This document shows, piece after piece, positions 21,960 to 29,429 of a stretch of 64,000 nt of DNA. Position 1 is the stretch's first letter, and the number at the start of each line of letters is the position of its first letter. Origin of the DNA: a virus; the IMG/VR virus record IMGVR_UViG_3300036790_000060, positions 1 to 64,000 of that record; one strand, written 5' to 3'. The translations under genes and the position numbers were made by a program. The notes below the pieces were generated by a model, which had not been told where the DNA came from, made no database searches, and worked only from the letters and a program-made list of their open reading frames with translations.

Positions 21960-23482
21960 GCGGTTTCCAAGGAACGAACACGGCCGAAGGCGGCGAAGGC
22001 AATACCTTCGTCGGCCTGTCGTCGGGCGCCGGATCACAGCTGACCAGGCTGATGCTGTCTGACGACATCGTTCCGGGCGATACGCCGTCCTACCAAACGT
22101 GCAAGATCACCTACACCTACCACCCGCTAGGCGGGAAGATGGTCGACACGCCGATCAAGGTGATGCAGTCCCAGGAACGCGAGATCACGGTTTCGGGCGG
22201 TCCTGAGACGAAGCTAATCCCGGAGTTCAAGCGTGTATGGAAGTCGCTTGCCAGTGTAGGCGCCGACTCGATCATCCAGAACGTTATCCGCACCGCGCGT
22301 ATCTACGGCATCGGTTCCCTGGCCTGCGGCACGCGCGGCATCGGCCAGAACGCGCCGCTCGTCTTCGAAAACATTACCGAAGAGAACGTGTACTTCAACA
22401 CGCTTGACCCGTTGAACACGGCCGGATCGCTAGTCCTTGACCAGGACCCTTCGAGCCCCGACTTCCAGAACCCGACGTCGATCACGTCAGGCGGGAAGAA
22501 CTGGCATGCGTCGCGCACCGTCGTGGTCATGAACGAAAAGCCGATCTACATCGAATTCACCAGTTCGGCGTTCGGCTTCGTCGGCCGGTCGGTTTACCAG
22601 CGCGCCCTGTTCCCGATGAAGACGTTCCTGCAATCCATGATCACCGACGACATGGTGACCAAGAAGTGCGGGCTGCTGGTCATCAACGCTACCGCGCCGG
22701 GTCCGGTCACGAACAACCGCATCCTGAACTTCTTCGGTCTGAAGCGCTCATATCTCAAGGGCGGCGTGACCGGGAACGTCATCACGATCGGCGAAAAGGA
22801 ACAAATCAGTTCCCTCAATTTCCAGAACCTGGAAGGTCCGGCGAAGTTCGCCCGCGACAACGCGCTGAAGAACATCGCCATGGCCGCCGGGATGCCAGCC
22901 AAGCTCCTCGAACAGGAGGAAATGGTCGGCGGCATGGCCGAAGGAACCGAGGACGCGAAGGCGATCGCGCAGTACATCAACGCGATGCGCGAAGAGTCGC
23001 AGCCGATCTATCGGTTTATGGATAAGGTCGTGATGCGCCTGGCCTGGTCCCCGACGTTCTACAAGACGATCCAGAAGGAATTCCCCGAGCTGTACGGCGG
23101 CGTCGATTACAAGACCGCGTTCATCGAATGGGCGAATGCGTTCGAAGCCACGTGGCCGAACCTGCTGGAAGAGCCCGATAGCGAAAAGATCAAGGTCGAG
23201 GAAACGCGGTTCAAGTCAGTCGTCGCCCTCCTGGAAACGCTGGTCCCGTCGCTCGATCCGGAGAACAAAGCCGCCGTGATCGCCTGGGCCGTGGACGAGA
23301 TCAATACGCGCCGCCAGCTGTTCTCCGCGAACCTGGACATCGACGCGAAGAAGCTGGCGAAGTTCGGGATCGAACAGCAGAAGCAGCAGCAACAGATGGC
23401 CCAGCAGGGCGCCGCTGGCGGGGCGGGCGAAGGCGGGGCGAAGGAACCTGCGCCGCCGAAGCCGTTTAGTTCGACGTCATGA
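21956..23482 (+). CDS. Portal protein (DUF1073-like)
   Basis: Size and position after TerL; ARIYG, HASR, GRSVYQR, NIAMAAGMP..LL and GTED motifs. Confidence 0.88.
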   Translation: MSGFQGTNTAEGGEGNTFVGLSSGAGSQLTRLMLSDDIVPGDTPSYQTCKITYTYHPLGGKMVDTPIKVMQSQEREITVSGGPETKLIPEFKRVWKSLASVGADSIIQNVIRTARIYGIGSLACGTRGIGQNAPLVFENITEENVYFNTLDPLNTAGSLVLDQDPSSPDFQNPTSITSGGKNWHASRTVVVMNEKPIYIEFTSSAFGFVGRSVYQRALFPMKTFLQSMITDDMVTKKCGLLVINATAPGPVTNNRILNFFGLKRSYLKGGVTGNVITIGEKEQISSLNFQNLEGPAKFARDNALKNIAMAAGMPAKLLEQEEMVGGMAEGTEDAKAIAQYINAMREESQPIYRFMDKVVMRLAWSPTFYKTIQKEFPELYGGVDYKTAFIEWANAFEATWPNLLEEPDSEKIKVEETRFKSVVALLETLVPSLDPENKAAVIAWAVDEINTRRQLFSANLDIDAKKLAKFGIEQQKQQQQMAQQGAAGGAGEGGAKEPAPPKPFSSTS

Positions 23483-25110
23483 CGACGCTACGCGATATCG
23501 CCCGGACGCTTGGCGTCATCAAGCCATCTCGCGAAGAGAAGCTGGCGGCAATCCTTGATGACCTGTCGTCGGTCGAAGTGCGGATGGACCTCGAATGGAA
23601 CGAGTCCGATCATCCGCGCGCCGCTGACGGCAAGTTCGGATCGGGTGGTGGCGGGTCCGTCGCGCACGGCGCGAAGTCGTATATCAAGAGCCTGGCCGGC
23701 AAGAAGGGCAGCGGCGCAGGGATGATCAAACACATGCTGCAGGCCGGCACCTATAGCAAGGCGGATATTATCGCGGCGACGAAGGAAGTAGGCTTCAACC
23801 TCGGCGGGAACCCGTCATACGCCATTGAAGCGTATCACAAGCAGATGATGAACCCGCCCCCGATCCCGGCGAAGTCTGGGCCGAAGGAAGTGAACACGCC
23901 AACGGGCACCGATCCTGATGGTTCGTTCGCCGCGCACGGCAAGAAGATACTGGCCGAGATCGAAGCGGCGAAGGCAGCGAAGGCGGCGGTTAGTGGGAAG
24001 TCGGCGCAGCAGCAAAAAGCCGTCGCGTCGCTGACTTCGATCGCCGAACTGCCGGATGAGAAAAAGACGGAAAAGTTCAAGGACGCCGCATACAAGTATC
24101 TCCCGTCGAACATCTTTTCAGCGATGAAACCGACGCTCGACCACTTCGAAAACCTGACGGCGGAAAACAAGCCGAAGGTCGAAAGCAAGCTGATGGAGGT
24201 GCTTACCGCGTTCGCCGAGAATGAGGGTAGCGATACGGATACGAATGACATCTACACGGCGCTGATGAAGATTGATCCGATCGCCGGTTCCGGGATGTCG
24301 GTCAACGCGGTGAACACAATGCTCGTCGGCGTGAAAGCCGACTACGCCTCGAAGGCGAACGTGACCGGTTACGCGCCGACGTCCGAAGCCGAGAAGAAGG
24401 TCTACAGCAAGCTATCGAAGGTCGCGCATTACGCCACCGATAGCGGTGCCGTCGCGGAAGACCACGAAGGCAAGGACATCAAAGCGCGGCTGAAGACCAG
24501 CACGAAGGCGATCCCCGGTGACTATTACGCCAAGGTGTCGTCGGCCTACAACGGGAAGAAGAACGTTGGCGATACCCCGCACGTCGGGTCGGCGATGCAG
24601 GACTACGGTAACGAGGTCTGGAACACGTTTGACGAAGAGCAGCGGGGCTCGCTTGATTTGTACAAAGGGTCAGGGTACATGTCGATCAATCAGGCGCTAT
24701 TAAGTGAGAACTTCGATGAGTATGCCAGCAGCGGTGTAAAGTCGCGTATCAAGAACATCGACGCGGCGATGGCAAAGTCAGTCGTTCCGGCCGATACCCC
24801 TGTGTTTCGTGGGATGACTGCCACCCTGAAGGACCTGACCGGCTTCGATGATCCCGACGAAGCCGTGGGCCGCGCGTTCGAACACAAGAACTACGCCTCG
24901 GTGTCGCGGAATATCGAAGTGTCGAAGAACTTCGGCTCGACGACGATGCTGCGGTTCACAATCCCCGCTGGGGCAAACGGCATCGTGCTGGGAAGTCAGT
25001 CGGCGGGCGAAAAGGAGATCGTCCTACCACGGCGCGGTGTGTTCCGGGTGGACAAGGTGACTGGCAATATGGTAGACGTCACCTATTTGGGAGTCCGTGA
25101 GGATGACTGA
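23479..25110 (+). CDS. VIP2/Alt-like (R-S-E) ADP-ribosyltransferase, putatively virion-associated
   Basis: C-terminal Y.GSGY.SIN..L, VFRG, YASVS and EKEIVLPR (ExE); N-terminal WNESDHPRAADGKFG motif. Confidence 0.88.
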   Translation: MTTLRDIARTLGVIKPSREEKLAAILDDLSSVEVRMDLEWNESDHPRAADGKFGSGGGGSVAHGAKSYIKSLAGKKGSGAGMIKHMLQAGTYSKADIIAATKEVGFNLGGNPSYAIEAYHKQMMNPPPIPAKSGPKEVNTPTGTDPDGSFAAHGKKILAEIEAAKAAKAAVSGKSAQQQKAVASLTSIAELPDEKKTEKFKDAAYKYLPSNIFSAMKPTLDHFENLTAENKPKVESKLMEVLTAFAENEGSDTDTNDIYTALMKIDPIAGSGMSVNAVNTMLVGVKADYASKANVTGYAPTSEAEKKVYSKLSKVAHYATDSGAVAEDHEGKDIKARLKTSTKAIPGDYYAKVSSAYNGKKNVGDTPHVGSAMQDYGNEVWNTFDEEQRGSLDLYKGSGYMSINQALLSENFDEYASSGVKSRIKNIDAAMAKSVVPADTPVFRGMTATLKDLTGFDDPDEAVGRAFEHKNYASVSRNIEVSKNFGSTTMLRFTIPAGANGIVLGSQSAGEKEIVLPRRGVFRVDKVTGNMVDVTYLGVREDD

Positions 25111-25258
25111 CGACGCGGCTGACCGCCGTTTTATCATCGAGAAGGGCTCGGTCGTCCCGATCGGGAAGATCAAGCAGACGATTGACCACACGTCCGAAGC
25201 CGACAAGAAGGCGAAGGCCGAGGCCGAACGCGCCCAGCAGATCGATGTCGACGAGTAG
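25103..25258 (+). CDS. Small protein (51 aa) coupled to the ART gene, not in ORF track
   Basis: Hand-translated MTDDAADRRFIIEKGSVVPIGK...IDVDE*; overlaps the ART stop and the MuF start. Confidence 0.5.
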   Translation: MTDDAADRRFIIEKGSVVPIGKIKQTIDHTSEADKKAKAEAERAQQIDVDE

Positions 25259-26096
25259 CCCCCAGACCTTTCAGGAACTGCTGACGGCCGCGATCAACGA
25301 ATTCTCCGAACGCGGATATGATAATCCGGAGCGCGTCCAGCACTGGTTGATGATCCTCCGGAACGCGGCGGAACGCGACCTAGGACCGGAGTGGCAGACC
25401 AACGCTGACGTCCGCGAACAGATGACGCGGCTGTTCGAAAAAGCGACTTCGGTCAACGACGTCAAACGCTACGTCCCGGATATCCAGCCGTGGACGATAT
25501 CGATCGTGAAGCCGAAGGTCAGGCCAGAACTGGACCGGCGCGTCATCGCCTCGGTTAACCTAATCAAGCTGAACCGCAAGACGGCCGTGGAGAATACGCT
25601 TAGGCGCGCTGAAGGGTGGATGACGTCCGTCCCGCCCGGTGGCGTCGAAGATATCGATCGGCGTGAGGTCAAGACGGGGATCACTAAGTCCCTCGCGCAG
25701 CATAAATACGAAGTCCGCCGGGTCACGATCGACCAGTCACATAAGCTCCTGTCGAACGTCCGCGACGTTATCGCGATGGACGCGGGGGCGATCGCCGTCA
25801 TCTGGCATAGCCACTGGCGCGACGCATCGTATAACTACAGGAAGGACCACAAGGGTCGGGACGAACGTGTCTACCTGATCCGCGACTCCTGGGCCCACAA
25901 GCAGGGGCTCGTCAAGCCGGGTCCAGCTGGCTACTTCGACCAGATCACGAAGCCCGGCGAAGAGGTCTACTGCCGCTGCTGGGTGGTTTACATCACGTCG
26001 CCGCGAAAGCTACCCGACGAAATGCTGACTTCGAATGGCCAGGCTTGGATCGAACGCGGCCGGATCGCCGCACAGAACAGGATAGCCGGATCATGA
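25245..26096 (+). CDS. MuF-like minor head morphogenesis protein
   Basis: IDQSHKL, WHSH, R.DH..RD and PGEEVYCRC motifs; ATG 25245. Confidence 0.88.
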   Translation: MSTSSPQTFQELLTAAINEFSERGYDNPERVQHWLMILRNAAERDLGPEWQTNADVREQMTRLFEKATSVNDVKRYVPDIQPWTISIVKPKVRPELDRRVIASVNLIKLNRKTAVENTLRRAEGWMTSVPPGGVEDIDRREVKTGITKSLAQHKYEVRRVTIDQSHKLLSNVRDVIAMDAGAIAVIWHSHWRDASYNYRKDHKGRDERVYLIRDSWAHKQGLVKPGPAGYFDQITKPGEEVYCRCWVVYITSPRKLPDEMLTSNGQAWIERGRIAAQNRIAGS

Positions 26097-26323
26097 ACGT
26101 CATCGACGAGATGAAGAAGATCGGCCAGCTTGTCGCCGACGCGGGCGGCCGGGTCCACCTGGAGATCGACACCAGGTTCTTCAACGAAGAGACGAAGGTC
26201 ACCGTCACGACGTGGCTACCCGGCGGTCACGATATCAAGTCGTCGGCGCATTCGATTGAGGATGCGCTTCACCACCTGCGAACGAACATCCGGGCGGCCG
26301 AAAGCTGGAGGAAGACACGATGA
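26093..26323 (+). CDS. Hypothetical protein
   Basis: ATGA coupling on both sides. Confidence 0.55.
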   Translation: MNVIDEMKKIGQLVADAGGRVHLEIDTRFFNEETKVTVTTWLPGGHDIKSSAHSIEDALHHLRTNIRAAESWRKTR

Positions 26324-26496
26324 GCTACGTCGATGAAGTGATGGCGCGGTTCACCGCTTACCGCAAGCGTGAAACCGAAAAGTTGGAAGAGCAGGACGAG
26401 GCGCTGCGCCAAGTGATCGAAAGGAACGCGCGGTATGCCGATGAGGTCCAGTCACAAATGGCGGAGGTCTTCGCCAAACTTCAATGGAAGAAGTGA
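26320..26496 (+). CDS. Small coiled-coil protein (58 aa, not in ORF track)
   Basis: GGAGG RBS; [11 protein letters not shown]...QWKK*. Confidence 0.55.
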
Positions 26497-26497
26497 C

Positions 26498-26704
26498 ATG
26501 CCGCTAGCATCCGGGTCGTCCAAGGAGGCGATCGGTCAGAACATCGCGACCGAACGCCACGCCGGCAAGCCGGAGAAGCAGGCGATCGCGATCGCGTATT
26601 CCGAAGCTGGGAAGTCGCGGAAGGACACGATGGGCCAGGTCCTGAAGGACTGCATGGCGCTCAGCGATCGGTTCGACAAGTTCATGAAGAGCAATAGCCG
26701 ATGA
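26498..26704 (+). CDS. Small head-module protein (DUF6496-like)
   Basis: [37 protein letters not shown] signature. Confidence 0.75.
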
Positions 26705-26949
26705 CGCCGTTCACGTTCCGGCTGCGCGTCCCGATGGACGTCAAGCCGCCGAGCTTCATGCCGCACGCGGTCATGGTCTGCCGTATCCGGGTCGGCATTC
26801 GCACGCACTTCATGGAAGTCACGTTCGAAAAGCTCGGCGAAGACGAACTGATCGCGACGTCGGTTATGGAACTGCCCGACTTCGACGCGATGAAAGACTT
26901 CGAGTTCGGCTGGATGGCTGAGGGCGTGTTCCTCCTGCTGGCCGTATAG
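26701..26949 (+). CDS. Hypothetical protein
   Basis: ATGA coupling; its stop abuts the tRNA 5' end. Confidence 0.5.
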
Positions 26950-27021
26950 GCGCCGCTTTCTGGCGAGGGTCCGGGCTTTCAATCCCAGGACAGCCCGGTT
27001 CGATCCCGGCGCGGCGCACCA
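26950..27021 (+). tRNA. Non-canonical 72-nt tRNA with 8-nt anticodon loop (CT-TTCA-AT); putative quadruplet UGAA decoder
   Basis: Perfect 7-bp acceptor stem GCGCCGC/GCGGCGC, A discriminator, encoded CCA (27019-27021); T-arm CCGG-TTCGATC-CCGG; anticodon arm TCCGGG/CCC-A-GGA; minimal D arm TTC-TGGC-GAG; variable loop CAG. Confidence 0.85.
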
Positions 27022-27036
27022 ATTCGTGAGGACGAT

Positions 27037-27136
27037 ATGACCAAACCCGATACGTGAATACGCGGCTAGAGGCCCACCCCGTCTCCCCAGGCTGACCCGT
27101 TCAACCTCAGGAGATGATCATGCACGTATTCCTTAA
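27037..27136 (+). promoter_or_regulatory. Leader ORF MTKPDT-[TGAA]-YAARGPPRL... with anti-Shine-Dalgarno hairpin (27080-27116)
   Basis: GAGGA RBS 27028-27032, ATG 27037, TGA 27055-27057 plus A; the +1 frame encodes RGPP (27068-27079); CGTCTCC (27080-27086) pairs with GGAGATG (27110-27116). Confidence 0.7.
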
Positions 27137-27476
27137 AGTCAAGATTTGTTCCCTCGCCGCCGAGGCTTCCATCATCCGTCGCGAAGAGCGCCGGTGGAAA
27201 CCGCGCTGGCGGTCCCACCAGGACCAGATGTTTTTCCGGCTGAAAGGACATCGCACCTGCGACGTCCGATCGGAGCAGCGGTCGGCCCTGCTGGCTTACG
27301 GCTTCCTTCGCGGGACGCCGTATCTGGTGATCGAGTCGAAGTGCTATGAAGAGCCGAACTGGGGGCGGGTCGCGAAGATCGTCCGGAAGTTCGGACCGCT
27401 GATATCTGAGACCGACGCCATGAAGGCGGTGTCGGAATGGTCCAAAGTGCCGCTGCCGGTCGCGCTGGCGGCTTAA
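27120..27476 (+). CDS. Basic protein of unknown function downstream of the leader
   Basis: AGGAG RBS 27109-27113, 6 nt from ATG 27120; LKVKICSLAAEASIIRREE...HR..DVRSEQR...LAYGFLRG.PY..IE. Confidence 0.8.
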   Translation: MHVFLKVKICSLAAEASIIRREERRWKPRWRSHQDQMFFRLKGHRTCDVRSEQRSALLAYGFLRGTPYLVIESKCYEEPNWGRVAKIVRKFGPLISETDAMKAVSEWSKVPLPVALAA

Positions 27477-27499
27477 CCCTGATCGCCGGAGAGGCGTTG

Positions 27500-28423
27500 A
27501 TGACGAAGAACGCTGCCGGTGTGATGATCATGTCGAAAGGGAGGGCGCTGCTGCTGCAGCGCTCCTCGACGTCCAGCCATCCGGGCGAATGGTGCTTTCC
27601 CGGCGGCGGGATGGAAGACGGCGAAACGCCTGACGAAGCCGCGTTCCGCGAACTGTTCGAAGAGATCGGCGACCAGGACGTGGGCGAACTCAAGTTCTGG
27701 ATCAGGCGGATCAAGGACGACGTTGACTTCACGACGTTCATCGCCAAGTCGCCGACGTGCTTCGAACCGCGACTGAACGACGAACACACGGCGTTCGCCT
27801 GGATCGATCCGGTGCACCCCGCCGTGAACATGCACCCCGGCGTCAAGATCGCGCTCGACAAGCTATCGATGGACGAGCTCGATATCGCCGACGCGATGGC
27901 GGACGAAGAGCTTTCCAGCCCGCAGGTGTACGGGAACCTCTGGATGTTCGCGATCCGGATCACCGGGACCGGCTTCGCCTACCGGGCAGGGCGGAAGGAA
28001 TACGCCTGGCGGGATACGTCGATCTATCTGACCGATCGGTTCCTGCGCCGTTGCAACGGCCTCCCGGTGACGATCGACCACCCGGACAAGTCTTCGCTCG
28101 ACACGAAGGAATACGAGGATAGGGCGGTCGGTTCCGTCTTCGTCCCCTACTTCAAGGGCGAAGAGGTCTGGGCGATCGTCAAGATACATAACGCTGCGGC
28201 CGCCGCGCTAATGCAAAGCGAGCAGCTTTCCACGTCTCCGGGCGTGGTCTTCCGAGACGCGACCAGCACGAACGCGACGTTCCAGCTAGGTGGTGGCAAG
28301 GCGCTACTGATCGAGGGCAAGCCCGCTCTCCTCGATCATATCGCAATTTGTGAGCAGGGCGTATGGGACAAAGGTGGAGAGCCCGCCGGAGTCGACATCA
28401 ACGGAGTAATCGATAATGGCTAA
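27500..28423 (+). CDS. NUDIX hydrolase fused to DUF2213 (putative prohead protease)
   Basis: Nudix box GGGMEDGETPDEAAFRELFEEIG; GLPVTIDHP, LSTSPGV and DHIAICEQG motifs; position before scaffold and capsid. Confidence 0.85.
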   Translation: MTKNAAGVMIMSKGRALLLQRSSTSSHPGEWCFPGGGMEDGETPDEAAFRELFEEIGDQDVGELKFWIRRIKDDVDFTTFIAKSPTCFEPRLNDEHTAFAWIDPVHPAVNMHPGVKIALDKLSMDELDIADAMADEELSSPQVYGNLWMFAIRITGTGFAYRAGRKEYAWRDTSIYLTDRFLRRCNGLPVTIDHPDKSSLDTKEYEDRAVGSVFVPYFKGEEVWAIVKIHNAAAAALMQSEQLSTSPGVVFRDATSTNATFQLGGGKALLIEGKPALLDHIAICEQGVWDKGGEPAGVDINGVIDNG

Positions 28424-29396
28424 GGAAGGTGAAGACGACGGCCTCCTGGACAAAATCCACGACGCAGTGAAGTCCCTGCACGGCCGGATGGATGCGTTCG
28501 AGAAAGAGCGCAAGGACGAAGACGACCGGAAGGACGCCGAGGAAAAGGTGCGTATGGACAAGGCGCGCCACGACTCCGCCCGGAAGGACAAGTTCGGCGC
28601 CCGGAAGGACGGCGAACGTCATGACGCTTGGAAGAAGCGCCACGACGAAGACGAGAAGGCCATGTGCGATGCCATGGGCGGCGACGATGCCGCGAAGGAC
28701 TCCGCCCGGAAGGATCGTCACGACGCTGAAGAGGAAGAGAAGCGCAACGACGAGGACTTCGAAAAGTGGGCCAAGGAAGAGGAAAAGGAGCCCGAGCACA
28801 AGAAGGACTCCGAGATGTCCTCCAAGCAGGCCGAGTCGCCTGAGATTAAGGACAGCGCTGAAACCGAAAAGGAAAAGGAAGAAGCTGTGAAGGACAAGGC
28901 GCGGCACGACGCGGTCGTTGCCGAGAACGCGGACCTGAAAGCCAGGTTCGAAAAGATGGAAAGCATCATCGCGAACCTGACCCGTGAAACTCCGGCGTCC
29001 GAACGTTCGGCTCTGGCGAACGCGCAGGCTCGCGCCGACAGCGTGGCGGTGATGTTCGCCGATCGCGCCCCGCCCCCGATCGGCGGCGAGACTTCGCTGG
29101 ACTACCGGAAGCGGATGCTCCGCCGGTTCCAGGCGCATTCCCCGCGCTTCAAGGAAACGCGGTTCGACAGCTACGACGAGGCATCGGTCAGCACGGTCGA
29201 GGACGTCATCTATCACGACGCGATCAACCGTGCGCGGGAACCCGGCGACACCCGTCCCGGTCAGCTGATGGCTTTCGAGGAGCGGGACCGCGCAGGCCGG
29301 ACGATCACCAAGTACTCCGGTGACATCCTGGGCTTCATGGCACCGTTCATGACGGGCGCCACGACCGGCACGATCAACCGCAAACCGAACGGCTAA
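28416..29396 (+). CDS. Capsid scaffolding protein
   Basis: Highly charged D/E/K/R coiled-coil; position. Confidence 0.75.
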   Translation: MAKEGEDDGLLDKIHDAVKSLHGRMDAFEKERKDEDDRKDAEEKVRMDKARHDSARKDKFGARKDGERHDAWKKRHDEDEKAMCDAMGGDDAAKDSARKDRHDAEEEEKRNDEDFEKWAKEEEKEPEHKKDSEMSSKQAESPEIKDSAETEKEKEEAVKDKARHDAVVAENADLKARFEKMESIIANLTRETPASERSALANAQARADSVAVMFADRAPPPIGGETSLDYRKRMLRRFQAHSPRFKETRFDSYDEASVSTVEDVIYHDAINRAREPGDTRPGQLMAFEERDRAGRTITKYSGDILGFMAPFMTGATTGTINRKPNG

Positions 29397-29429
29397 TCCG
29401 TTCCCGAACCTCTGAAAGGCGATTGAATT

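What the first reader, a model, noticed from the sequence alone, without database searches (positions are those of the whole stretch)
27059..27122. RGPP codons sit one ribosome footprint from an anti-SD hairpin
Seen: CGTCTCC(27080-86)/GGAGATG(27110-16), AGG(27089-91)/CCT(27105-07) and TGA(27093-95)/TCA(27101-03), with loop CCCGT. The 3' arm contains AGGAG, the RBS of ATG 27120. Inference: a ribosome arrested on Pro-Pro (27074-27079) would cover the 5' arm and free the RBS, while one terminating at TGA 27055 would not reach it. This is translational-attenuation geometry and supports the +1 frame independently of the tRNA.
Basis: partly seen in the sequence, partly recalled or inferred. Interest (0 to 1): 0.72.

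Follow-up and report, generated by a model that had tools for sequence, protein, structure and literature searches.

The report
Four-base-codon sensing switch in a phage
A soil phage hides the ribosome-binding site of a small conserved gene in a hairpin that should open only when the phage's own unusual tRNA reads a stop codon as four bases and the ribosome then stalls on Arg-Gly-Pro-Pro, a design repeated in about a hundred distant phages.

Summary
The hairpin is real, exactly as described (27080-86/27110-16, 27089-91/27105-07, 27093-95/27101-03). It is stable beyond chance (dG -15.8 kcal/mol, z -3.0). It buries GGAG of the Shine-Dalgarno site of ATG 27120, the start of a conserved 118-aa phage protein of unknown function.

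Homologues of the gene sit next to stop-reading tRNAs in about 100 phage loci:
- 7-nt CUA loops go with a TAG leader and an R-x-Pro-Pro motif in frame 0.
- 8-nt loops (N-Y-UUCAA-N, as at 26950-27021) go with TGA-A leaders and the motif in frame +1. This held at 30 of 32 TGAAT sites, and at 37 of 50 in a second set; frames 0 and +2 scored 0 of 32 each, then 2 and 5 of 50.
- The stretch from Pro-Pro to the start codon folds into an anti-SD hairpin: 37 of 50 and 38 of 46 loci have z < -2, against 14 of 100 control segments.

RGPP is a published RAPP-like arrest motif.

Best reading (0.7): a suppression-gated arrest leader that unmasks the SD. Nothing here is experimental, the tRNA-like gene fails standard detectors, and the protein's role is unknown. 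An earlier report of this scan described the amber form on other DNA; this window is the four-base form.

The parts
26950..27021 (+). tRNA-like gene with an 8-nt anticodon loop CUUUCAAU (4-base anticodon UUCA, cognate to UGAA). It has a 7-bp acceptor stem, T arm, discriminator A and encoded CCA, a shortened D region (14 nt) and a long interrupted anticodon arm.
   Evidence: Sequence. The cloverleaf-like parts are tabulated with 19 relatives and 56 distinct relatives. L003 shows a compensatory acceptor change. ARAGORN does not call it, and the best Rfam hit is tRNA-Sec at 20.2 bits against a gathering score of 47.
27028..27032 (+). Shine-Dalgarno-like GAGGA of the leader ORF, 4 nt before ATG 27037.
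   Evidence: Leaders in the relatives also carry an SD.
27037..27057 (+). Leader ORF ATG ACC AAA CCC GAT ACG TGA (M-T-K-P-D-T-stop).
   Evidence: L003 has M-K-P-D-T-stop with a synonymous CCC to CCG change. The P-D-T-stop ending also occurs in L034, L042 and L062.
27055..27058 (+). UGAA, the proposed four-base codon. The fourth base A and the following U are conserved.
   Evidence: TGAAT lies 65-94 nt (once 134) before the gene start in 32 loci and in 45 further loci.
27067..27069 (+). TAG in frame 0. It stops any ordinary three-base read-through of UGA before it reaches the hairpin.
   Evidence: A 0-frame stop before the end of the Pro-Pro codons occurs in 39 of 80 loci, against 4 of 80 for the +2 frame. 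A footprint at this TAG does not free the SD.
27068..27079 (+). AGA GGC CCA CCC = Arg-Gly-Pro-Pro in the +1 frame, an RxPP (RAPP-like) arrest motif.
   Evidence: Frame tests are. RGPP is listed among RAPP-like arrest motifs (PMC10987492, passages and section 13 read). PMC10951233 reports RxPP as a minimal arresting motif (passages).
27059..27136 (+). +1-frame continuation of the leader (Y A A R G P P R L P R L T R S T S G D D H A R I P, stop TAA 27134-27136). It runs through the hairpin and the SD and ends 14 nt after the A of ATG 27120.
   Evidence: In 13 loci of the first set the read-through ORF ends between -7 and +16 of the gene's ATG.
27080..27116 (+). Anti-SD hairpin (5' arm 27080-27095, loop 27096-27100, 3' arm 27101-27116).
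   Evidence: An equivalent hairpin of different sequence occurs in L003 and in most relatives.
27109..27113 (+). AGGAG, the SD of the 118-aa gene. GGAG 27110-13 is paired in the hairpin.
   Evidence: P(unpaired) is about 0 in free mRNA and 0.66-0.86 with 27062-27089 masked.
27120..27476 (+). Gene for a conserved 118-aa all-helical phage protein of unknown function, the regulated output.
   Evidence: 160 of 165 candidates are homologues at E <= 0.01. The AF2 model has pLDDT 93.3. There is no Pfam, PHROG, NCBIfam or PADLOC family.

Best explanation
The hairpin is the output stage of a translational switch that reports whether the phage's own stop-reading tRNA works. The steps below are inferred unless marked as shown.

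1. Ribosomes start at ATG 27037 behind an SD (27028-32) and reach UGA 27055 after six codons.
2. If release factor 2 wins, the ribosome ends there. Its footprint stops about 13 nt short of the hairpin, and the SD of the gene stays paired. The geometry is shown; the SD state is from in-silico masking.
3. If the tRNA-like RNA encoded 34 nt upstream (8-nt loop CUUUCAAU) decodes UGAA as one four-base step, the ribosome moves into the +1 frame.
4. In that frame it translates Y-A-A-R-G-P-P and stalls with Pro-Pro (27074-79) in the P and A sites, as RAPP-like arrest motifs do.
5. The stalled ribosome covers the 5' arm 27080-86. That frees AGGAG 27109-13 for repeated initiation at ATG 27120, so a weak decoding event is amplified.
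6. Ribosomes that pass the stall unfold the whole hairpin and end at TAA 27134. They may then reinitiate at ATG 27120.
7. A three-base read-through of UGA ends at TAG 27067 and never reaches the hairpin (shown by the sequence and by masking).

The tRNA, the leader and the 118-aa gene travel together as a self-contained cassette. The role of the protein is not known. My guess is a regulator that couples some phage function, or the level of the tRNA itself, to suppressor activity.
For: Structure: the hairpin is the MFE fold (dG -15.8, z -2.99, 3 of 200 shuffles). GGAG 27110-13 has P(unpaired) of about 0 in free mRNA and with a ribosome at UGA or at the 0-frame TAG. It rises to 0.66-0.86 with a footprint on Pro-Pro.

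Nearest relative: L003 (gene 72% identical) has the same order of tRNA-like gene with CUUUCAAU, M-K-P-D-T-UGA-A, R-Y-P-P in frame +1, and a 12-of-13-bp hairpin of different sequence over its SD.

Frame test blind to the motif: of 32 TGAAT sites upstream of the gene in 32 viral loci, Pro-Pro follows within 18 codons in frame +1 at 30, in frame 0 at 0 and in frame +2 at 0. In 45 further non-duplicate metagenome and genome loci with 50 sites, the counts are 37, 2 and 5. The distance from stop to Pro-Pro varies from 1 to 12 codons but always keeps the frame. The third bases of the Pro codons vary.

tRNA covariation:
- 7-nt CUCUAAA loops: TAG with Pro-Pro in frame 0 in 13 of 19 typed loci; 5 more have no leader motif.
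- 8-nt N-U-UCUA-A-N loops: Pro-Pro in frame +1 after a TAG in 5 of 5; the leader stop reads TAGA in the 8 such loci whose leader I read.
- 8-nt N-Y-UUCAA-N loops: TGA with frame +1 in 36 of 42.

tRNA detection: 8-nt-loop tRNA-likes with 7 of 7 acceptor pairs were found in 63 of 158 loci on the gene's strand against 1 of 158 on the other strand, and 0-2 with scrambled cores. 56 of these sequences are distinct.

Hairpin conservation:
- First set: the stretch from Pro-Pro to the ATG has median z -3.1, with z < -2 in 37 of 50 loci. The SD has at least 3 nt paired to a 5' partner in 45 of 50, and that partner starts -5 to +15 nt from the end of Pro-Pro.
- Second set: median z -3.6, 38 of 46 and 41 of 46.
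- Control: same-length coding segments have median z -0.3, with 14 of 100 below -2.

Dependence on suppression: TAG lies in frame at codon 3 or 5 of the gene itself in L006, L014, L019, L027, L063, L051-L053, L057, L109, L121, L154 and L156.

Motif: R-x-P-P occurs in 31 of 46 loci. RAPP, RGPP, RDPP and RSPP dominate. RGPP and RAPP are published arrest motifs next to SD-sequestering stem-loops (PMC10987492 and PMC10951233; passages read).
Against: Nothing is measured: there is no RNA, no footprint and no protein.

- The tRNA-like gene is not called by ARAGORN. It scores only 20.2 bits to Rfam tRNA-Sec, against a gathering score of 47. Its D region is shortened. Whether it is processed, charged and accepted by EF-Tu is unknown.
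- RAPP-like motifs alone often do not arrest. [quoted passage not shown] The nascent chain here is only about 13 residues, and EF-P may relieve the pause.
- The 116-nt region as a whole is not unusually stable (z -1.26).
- Exceptions exist. 2 of 32 and 13 of 50 TGAAT sites lack Pro-Pro in frame +1. L044 pairs a UUUA loop with a TGAAT leader. L034 and L042 have no clear leader start outside the tRNA.
- The loci are related by descent, so the counts are not independent events.
- No other gene of this 72.8-kb phage was found to need UGAA decoding, so the biological purpose of the circuit is open.
Confidence: 0.7

Rival explanations
1. Coupling without arrest. The four-base decoding and the +1 ORF are real, but RGPP is not an arrest signal. 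Ribosomes simply translate through the hairpin, end at TAA 27134-36 and reinitiate at ATG 27120 (termination-reinitiation coupling). The hairpin only prevents independent initiation.
For: The +1 ORF of the window ends 14 nt after the A of the ATG. In 13 loci of the first set the read-through ORF ends between -7 and +16 of the gene's start, several with ATGA overlaps. RAPP-like motifs often fail to arrest out of context (PMC10987492 section 13).
Against: In many relatives the read-through ORF ends right at or a few codons after Pro-Pro, 44-75 nt before the gene's start (L020, L021, L022, L025, L029, L030, L032, L037, L039 and L044). Reinitiation cannot be the link there, yet R-x-P-P and the hairpin are kept. 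Conservation of R-x-P-P with free third bases is not explained by coupling alone.
Confidence: 0.15
2. Decayed or idle copy. The family-wide switch exists, but in this phage the tRNA-like gene is degenerate and no longer decodes. The hairpin then merely damps constitutive translation of the gene, or the gene is silent.
For: ARAGORN and Rfam do not recognise the tRNA-like gene. Its anticodon stem has a C-A mismatch or a bulge.
Against: The same short-D architecture occurs in about 25 loci, with perfect 7-bp acceptors of different sequence, intact T arms, the same 8-nt loop and covarying distal anticodon-arm pairs. L003 keeps it with a compensatory acceptor change. Leader, 0-frame TAG, RGPP, hairpin and gene are all intact in the window.
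Confidence: 0.08
3. tRNA-independent +1 frameshift of the prfB type. The shift at UGA happens by slippage of the P-site tRNA when release factor 2 is scarce, so the switch senses RF2 and not a phage tRNA.
For: A UGA stop followed by a required +1 shift is the logic of prfB autoregulation (recalled knowledge). Read-through here must compete with RF2 in any case.
Against: The codon before UGA is ACG in the window, and ACC, UUC, AGC, AAC, UAU or UUG elsewhere. ACG cannot re-pair in the +1 frame, and no internal SD sits 3 nt before the stop. The fourth base A is kept only where the linked tRNA has an 8-nt loop, while 7-nt CUA loops go with TAG plus any fourth base and frame 0. A cognate 8-nt-loop tRNA is linked in 63 of 158 loci.
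Confidence: 0.05
4. The hairpin is an unrelated RNA element (terminator, processing site or stability element), and its overlap with the SD is incidental.
For: Short GC-rich hairpins are common. The region-wide z-score is weak.
Against: No U-tract follows, and the scan found no terminator there. The position relative to Pro-Pro and the SD is conserved while the sequence is not, in 45 of 50 and 41 of 46 loci.
Confidence: 0.02

Closest known systems
RAPP-like arrest-peptide leaders (SecM-secA, ApdA/ApdP-secDF2, the 'RQH' uORFs; PMC10987492, PMC10951233)
   Same: A short upstream ORF carries R-(A/G)-P-P. A ribosome stalled there disrupts a stem-loop that sequesters the SD of the next gene.
   Different: Here the arrest motif is reached only after a stop codon is decoded, in the +1 frame, by a dedicated phage tRNA. 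There is no signal peptide and no Sec/YidC link, the nascent chain is about 13 residues, the host is a phage, and what releases the stall is unknown.
Amber-read-through-gated leader switch reported earlier by this scan on another phage (note e1-5705437)
   Same: A stop codon in a tiny leader, Pro-Pro, an anti-SD hairpin, and a phage suppressor tRNA. Amber-type members of the same gene family appear among my loci (L004, L005, L008 and others).
   Different: This window is the four-base form: an 8-nt anticodon loop, UGA-A, the arrest motif in the +1 frame, and a 0-frame back-stop TAG.
Frameshift-suppressor and engineered quadruplet-decoding tRNAs (SufB2; UAGN decoders PMC4764823; PMC9094753; titles and abstracts seen)
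   Same: An 8-nt anticodon loop, a fourth codon base complementary to the extra anticodon base, and a +1 outcome.
   Different: Those are laboratory mutants or engineered tRNAs. These are natural, phage-encoded, aimed at stop-based quadruplets UGAA and UAGA, and wired to a sensor.
Engineered leader-peptide switches with an inserted UAG (review PMC6412442, section 6 passages)
   Same: Translation of a leader beyond an inserted stop codon by a suppressor tRNA turns on the downstream gene.
   Different: That switch is synthetic and transcriptional (tna-type, rut masking). Here it is natural and translational, by SD unmasking.
prfB (RF2) programmed +1 frameshift (recalled knowledge)
   Same: Competition at UGA between release and a +1 event sets expression of a downstream reading frame.
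   Different: There is no slippery P-site codon and no internal SD. A cognate tRNA is supplied, and the output is a separate gene reached through a hairpin.
Suppressor tRNAs of stop-codon-recoded phages (bioRxiv 10.1101/2021.08.26.457843, passages)
   Same: Phage-encoded tRNAs that read stop codons.
   Different: This phage reads well in the standard code, and no other recoded gene was found. That paper's passages mention no leader sensor or four-base decoding.

Membership tests
RAPP-like (RQH) arrest-peptide leader | R/Q/H-A/G-P-P motif near the end of an upstream ORF | tested here: met
   RGPP at 27068-27079 in the +1 continuation of the leader. R-x-P-P occurs in 31 of 46 relatives.
RAPP-like (RQH) arrest-peptide leader | Stem-loop sequestering the SD of the downstream gene, placed so that the stalled ribosome disrupts it | tested here: met
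   for the window; for the relatives.
RAPP-like (RQH) arrest-peptide leader | Located upstream of secA, secDF or yidC, with an N-terminal localisation signal | tested here: not met
   The downstream gene is an uncharacterised 118-aa phage protein. The leader has 6 codons and no signal sequence.
RAPP-like (RQH) arrest-peptide leader | Demonstrated ribosome arrest (peptidyl-tRNA accumulation, toeprint) | not testable with these tools
Canonical bacterial tRNA | Recognised by tRNA detectors or a covariance model | tested here: not met
   ARAGORN finds 0 genes in the window and in the 72,835-nt genome. The best Rfam hit is tRNA-Sec at 20.2 bits against a gathering score of 47.
Canonical bacterial tRNA | 7-bp acceptor stem, 5-bp T stem with a TTCRANY loop, discriminator and CCA | tested here: met
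   7 of 7 acceptor pairs, 4 of 5 T-stem pairs, loop TTCGATC, then A and CCA.
Canonical bacterial tRNA | Standard D arm and 5-bp anticodon stem with a 7-nt loop | tested here: not met
   The D region is 14 nt, the anticodon arm is 3 bp + bulge + 4 bp, and the loop is 8 nt.
Quadruplet-decoding (+1 frameshift-suppressor type) tRNA | 8-nt anticodon loop whose four central bases complement a four-base codon | tested here: met
   CUUUCAAU holds UUCA, opposite UGAA at 27055-58. The TGAA context is shared by 61 of 80 quadruplet-type leaders, with the rest TAGA.
Quadruplet-decoding (+1 frameshift-suppressor type) tRNA | Decoding moves the ribosome to the +1 frame | tested here: inconclusive
   This is supported only by comparison: a conserved coding motif in frame +1 at 30 of 32 and 37 of 50 sites. 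No product has been observed.
prfB-type programmed +1 frameshift site | Slippery P-site codon able to re-pair in +1 (CUU U), plus an internal SD 3 nt upstream | tested here: not met
   The site reads ACG UGA A with no SD inside the leader.
Intrinsic terminator | GC-rich stem followed by a U-tract | tested here: not met
   The hairpin is followed by AUCAUGCACG. The scan lists no terminator at 27080-27125.

The most novel reading that the evidence does not exclude
Phages carry a mobile, self-contained genetic circuit built on natural four-base decoding. A dedicated 8-nt-loop tRNA, often with a reduced D arm, reads UGAA or UAGA. A leader with a back-stop in frame 0 and an RxPP arrest motif in frame +1 turns that rare event into sustained opening of an anti-SD hairpin. 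The 118-aa helical protein made as a result acts as a feedback regulator or effector that ties a phage decision to the balance between the suppressor tRNA and the host's release factor. This would be the first natural quadruplet codon with a regulatory purpose, and a natural counterpart of synthetic orthogonal-translation switches.
Probability: 0.35. Interest if true: 0.95.

Novelty: new variant of a known kind. Interest (0 to 1): 0.85.

Why it matters
Leader peptides that stall ribosomes to unmask a start site are known. They sense secretion, drugs or amino acids. Here the input would be the activity of a phage-encoded stop-reading tRNA, and in this window a four-base codon.

If the reading is right, three things follow:
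- It gives a natural, widespread use of quadruplet decoding, which has so far been a matter of laboratory suppressors and engineering.
- It shows that phages monitor their own recoding machinery.
- It supplies compact, evolved parts for synthetic biology: tRNAs reading UGAA or UAGA, a 0-frame back-stop, and very short RxPP arrest leaders.

It also flags an uncharacterised protein family (160 homologues found) and a class of short-D-arm tRNA-like genes that standard detectors miss.

Tried and rejected
- tRNA detectors: ARAGORN on the window and the whole 72,835-nt genome found no tRNA. Rfam with permissive thresholds on 26000-28000 gave only sub-threshold hits: tRNA-Sec at 20.2 bits, and a chance SAH-like hit on the minus strand.
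- blastn of 25200-29400 against GenBank phages gave 7 weak hits. None covers the leader or the gene.
- A single-sequence locus search found 1 weak locus. The alignment-based search was needed.
- Protein function. Pfam, PHROGs, NCBIfam and PADLOC gave nothing. The ESM Atlas gave no usable hit. Foldseek against the PDB gave nothing at E <= 0.001. VIA-align wide gave only generic helical hairpins at Z <= 7.0. BFVD gave only uncharacterised phage proteins. A profile search against PDB sequences gave Myb at E 0.68, which is not significant.
- Gene neighbourhood: no second protein family is shared by more than 3 of 74 loci.
- A scan of the genome for other ORF pairs joined by TGAA in +1 listed 34 sites, all explainable by long open frames or ATGA overlaps. 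None was convincing.
- The MAFFT alignment A2 of the tRNA-likes misaligned the 5' acceptor strands, so I did not use it for pair counts.
- The stop-class frame table is partly confounded. The TGA that overlaps many leader ATGs (ATGAC.) lies in the Pro-Pro frame and scores as 'frame 0'. I rely on the TGAAT test instead.
- picked the internal TAGAG site instead of the leader stop in about 10 loci. The Pro-Pro site is the same, but the context counts are slightly off.
- The promoter and terminator scan found nothing relevant.
- Sequencing runs: one DNA holder (soil metagenome, possibly the source) and no RNA holder listed. No reads were laid.
- Literature: five searches found no paper describing a natural phage leader gated by a suppressor or four-base-decoding tRNA.
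- Supplementary tables of PMC10987492 (lists of RAPP-like uORFs) could not be seen and might hold phage or prophage examples.
Full report
**1. The observation**

The window is 64 kb of a 72,835-nt IMG/VR virus record. Its head-morphogenesis genes lie on the + strand.
- CGUCUCC 27080-86 pairs with GGAGAUG 27110-16, with one G-U pair.
- AGG 27089-91 pairs with CCU 27105-07.
- UGA 27093-95 pairs with UCA 27101-03.
- The loop is CCCGU.

RNAfold gives exactly this structure.
- The 37-nt hairpin alone has -14.3 kcal/mol.
- In 27076-27122 it has -15.8 kcal/mol, 83% of the ensemble and z -2.99. Only 3 of 200 dinucleotide shuffles fold as well.
- It persists in the MFE of 27025-27140 and 27023-27150.
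- The larger region as a whole is unremarkable (z -1.26).

AGGAG 27109-13 lies 6 nt before ATG 27120. There is no U-tract and no terminator call.

**2. What surrounds it**

ATG 27120 opens a 118-aa ORF that ends at 27476. It is a real, conserved protein: 160 of 165 candidates match at E <= 0.01. The N-termini M-x-x-[VY]-[YF]-L-K-[VI]-K-I fix the start at 27120. It has no Pfam, PHROG, NCBIfam or PADLOC family.

AlphaFold gives a confident all-helical model (pLDDT 93.3). It has a long helical hairpin at residues 2-64 plus three short helices. The model matches only uncharacterised phage proteins and generic coiled coils.

Upstream, 26950-27021 is a tRNA-like gene.
- It has a 7-bp acceptor stem, a T arm with loop TTCGATC, discriminator A and CCA.
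- Its D region is only 14 nt.
- Its anticodon loop is CUUUCAAU, 8 nt.
- ARAGORN and Rfam do not accept it.

Seven bases after the CCA comes GAGGA. Then follows the leader ATG ACC AAA CCC GAT ACG TGA (27037-57), followed by A.
- Frame 0 continues ATA CGC GGC TAG (27067-69).
- Frame +1 after TGAA reads Y A A R G P P R L P R L T R S T S G D D H A R I P and stops at TAA 27134-36, 14 nt past the A of the gene's ATG.

**3. Comparative evidence**

An alignment of 30 homologues (A1) retrieved 73 viral loci. It later retrieved 5 genome loci and 80 metagenome loci. Of those 85, 69 had at least 150 nt of upstream sequence and were not duplicates.

*(a) Linked tRNAs.* ARAGORN on the 500 nt upstream of the gene in the window and the 73 viral loci (74 regions) found 31 tRNAs:
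- 17 with anticodon CUA;
- 4 with four-base anticodons (ttca twice, tcta, ccta);
- 2 read as 'tc';
- 4 'Glu ttc', 2 of which (L028, L050) hold a UUUCAA loop;
- 1 'ta';
- 3 ordinary tRNAs.

My own search looked for 8-nt loops N-Y-UUCAA-N with a T arm and 7 of 7 acceptor pairs.
- It found them in 63 of 158 loci on the gene's strand.
- It found them in 1 of 158 on the opposite strand, and in 0-2 with scrambled cores.
- The UCUAA core gave 34 loci.
- 56 of the UUCA-type sequences are distinct.
- About 25 of them, including the window's, share the short D region and an anticodon arm of 3 bp + bulge + 3-5 bp whose distal pairs covary.

L003, the nearest relative (72% protein identity), differs from the window in the acceptor stem by a compensatory pair.

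*(b) Stop type and frame follow the tRNA.* In loci with 7-nt CUCUAAA loops, a mini-ORF (often ATG-NNN-TAG) behind an SD is followed in frame 0 by x-G/A/S/D-P-P.

I then ran a test that does not look at the motif first. I took every TGAAT lying 40-170 nt before the gene's start and asked in which frame Pro-Pro follows within 18 codons without a stop.
- First set: 32 sites in 32 loci. Frame +1 scored 30, frame 0 scored 0 and frame +2 scored 0. The misses are L036 (G-P-stop) and L065.
- Second set: 50 sites in 45 loci. Frame +1 scored 37, frame 0 scored 2 and frame +2 scored 5. Four of the five +2 hits are PPP runs that also score in +1.

With typed loops:
- 8-nt UUCA loops have a TGA with Pro-Pro in +1 in 36 of 42 loci.
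- 8-nt UCUA loops have Pro-Pro in +1 after a TAG in 5 of 5. In the 8 such loci whose leader I read (L030, L037, L049, L080, L087, L092, L117, L148), the leader stop reads TAGA.
- 7-nt CUA loops have TAG with Pro-Pro in frame 0 in 13 of 19. Five have none.

That table is partly confounded, as explained under Tried and rejected.

The number of codons between the stop and Pro-Pro varies from 1 to 12, but the frame is kept. The third bases of the Pro codons vary. The constraint is therefore on a reading frame and not on an RNA spacing.

The fourth base is A wherever the loop has 8 nt. It is free where the loop has 7 nt.

A 0-frame stop lies before the end of the Pro-Pro codons in 39 of 80 loci. 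The +2 frame, as control, has one in 4 of 80. The window's TAG 27067 is one of these back-stops.

*(c) The hairpin.* The segment from Pro-Pro to the gene's ATG is 49-84 nt long in the 50 loci of the first set.
- First set: median z is -3.1, with z < -2 in 37 of 50. The SD has at least 3 nt paired to a 5' partner in 45 of 50, and is fully paired in 24 of 50. That partner starts between -5 and +15 nt of the end of Pro-Pro, and is often the CCUCC of the Pro codons themselves.
- Second set: median z is -3.6, with z < -2 in 38 of 46 and the SD paired in 41 of 46.
- Control: same-length segments inside the gene give a median z of -0.3, with 14 of 100 below -2.

The hairpin sequences are not alignable between loci. 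What is conserved is the structure and its place.

*(d) Dependence on suppression is selected.* In L006, L014, L019, L027 and L063, TAG is codon 3 of the gene itself. In L051-L053 and L057 it is codon 5. L109, L121, L154 and L156 also have TAG as codon 3. None of these has a separate start after the stop.

*(e) The cassette is self-contained.* No other protein family is shared by more than 3 of the 74 loci. The whole genome of this phage has no other detectable tRNA and no convincing second UGAA-dependent gene.

**4. Mechanism**

Masking the footprint of a ribosome ending at UGA (27040-67), or at the 0-frame TAG (27052-79), leaves GGAG 27110-13 paired, with P(unpaired) about 0. Masking a ribosome with Pro-Pro in its P and A sites (27062-89) raises P(unpaired) to 0.66-0.86.

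RGPP belongs to the published RAPP-like arrest motifs. PMC10987492 lists RAPP, RGPP, RAGP and RAPG uORFs upstream of sec and yidC genes and recalls the SecM stem-loop that hides the secA SD (passages and section 13). [quoted passage not shown] It also states that a minimal RxPP can suffice (passages).

Among my loci RAPP, RGPP, RDPP and RSPP dominate.

The best-supported mechanism is therefore as follows. The 8-nt-loop tRNA decodes UGAA as four bases and the ribosome enters frame +1. It arrests at RGPP directly in front of the 5' arm. The SD is held open and the 118-aa gene is translated. Termination at TAA 27134 with reinitiation is a second route.

- Shown: the sequence features, the folds, and their conservation and covariation.
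- Inferred: that the RNA is a working tRNA, that decoding is four-base, that the ribosome arrests, and that the gene's output changes.

**5. Caveats**

- Nothing is experimental, and no RNA data set holds the locus.
- The tRNA-like gene is non-canonical.
- RAPP-like motifs often fail to arrest out of context (PMC10987492, section 13).
- There are exceptions among the loci (L036, L044, L065, the single-Pro leaders, and 13 of 50 sites in the second set).
- The loci share ancestry, so the counts overstate the number of independent events.
- The purpose of the circuit and the function of the protein remain unknown. A feedback or timing regulator is my guess. A non-significant Myb-like hint (E 0.68) is the only lead.

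**6. Novelty**

Five literature searches and passages of the main paper on phage recoding turned up no natural example. A review describes the engineered equivalent, a UAG inserted into a leader peptide (PMC6412442).

An earlier report of this scan (e1-5705437) described the amber form on another phage and also found no publication. I reached my reading before I saw that note. Its citation of PMC10987492 was useful.

This window adds the four-base form, the 0-frame back-stop, and the short-D tRNA class.

I file it as a new variant of a known kind, namely arrest-leader translational attenuation. It is not a member of the Sec/YidC monitoring-substrate families, whose defining context it lacks.

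Noticed in passing
window 27049-27056 and 27123-27130: GAUACGUG at the end of the leader (including the U and G of the UGA) is complementary to CACGUAUU, codons 2-4 of the gene. It forms an outer helix around the hairpin in the MFE. The helix is absent in L003, so it may be chance or specific to this phage.
   Followed up: partly
window 27500-28423 and 28416-29396: One PHROG profile (phrog_6216, 545 positions) is split over two ORFs that overlap by 8 nt, with the second in the +1 frame. The first ORF is a NUDIX domain fused to a DUF2213 / prohead-protease-like part. The stop context is TAAG, so it is not a UGAA site.
   Followed up: partly
window 23479-25110: A 543-aa head-module protein carries a C-terminal ADP-ribosyltransferase domain (PF03496, E 3.7e-19; PHROG Alt-like). 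It is probably an injected or internal-head host-modifying enzyme.
   Followed up: no
L044 upstream region: The linked tRNA-like gene has an 8-nt loop AUUUUAAA (UUUA, ochre-type), but the leader stop is TGAAT with RGPP in frame +1. This mismatch is not explained by simple cognate pairing.
   Followed up: no
L065 and L137 upstream regions: The only good ATG lies one frame behind the gene body and joins it through a four-base step at a TGA. These are candidate forms with the quadruplet inside the gene itself. L065 also has a possible internal TTG start.
   Followed up: partly
L097, L098, L116, L119: The leader +1 peptide is C-R-D-P-C or C-R-D-P-stop, with one proline instead of two, next to canonical-D-arm 8-nt-loop tRNAs. 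This is a variant arrest motif or a weakened switch.
   Followed up: no
window 26950-27021 and about 25 loci: This is a class of 65-70-nt tRNA-like genes that standard tRNA finders miss. They have an 11-15-nt D region, almost no variable loop, and an anticodon arm of 3 bp + bulge + 3-5 bp.
   Followed up: partly
L073, L074: More distant homologues of the gene have leaders ending in TAA or TAG followed by I-x-x-I-R-G-P-P in frame 0, so all three stop codons are used in the family.
   Followed up: no
L076-L080: Only 5 loci were found in 185,579 species genomes: an Alsobacter MAG, Rhizobium leguminosarum, a Rhizobium MAG, a Planctomycetota MAG and an Enterobacterales MAG. The cassette is therefore mostly in free phage or metagenome contigs and rare in prophages.
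   Followed up: no
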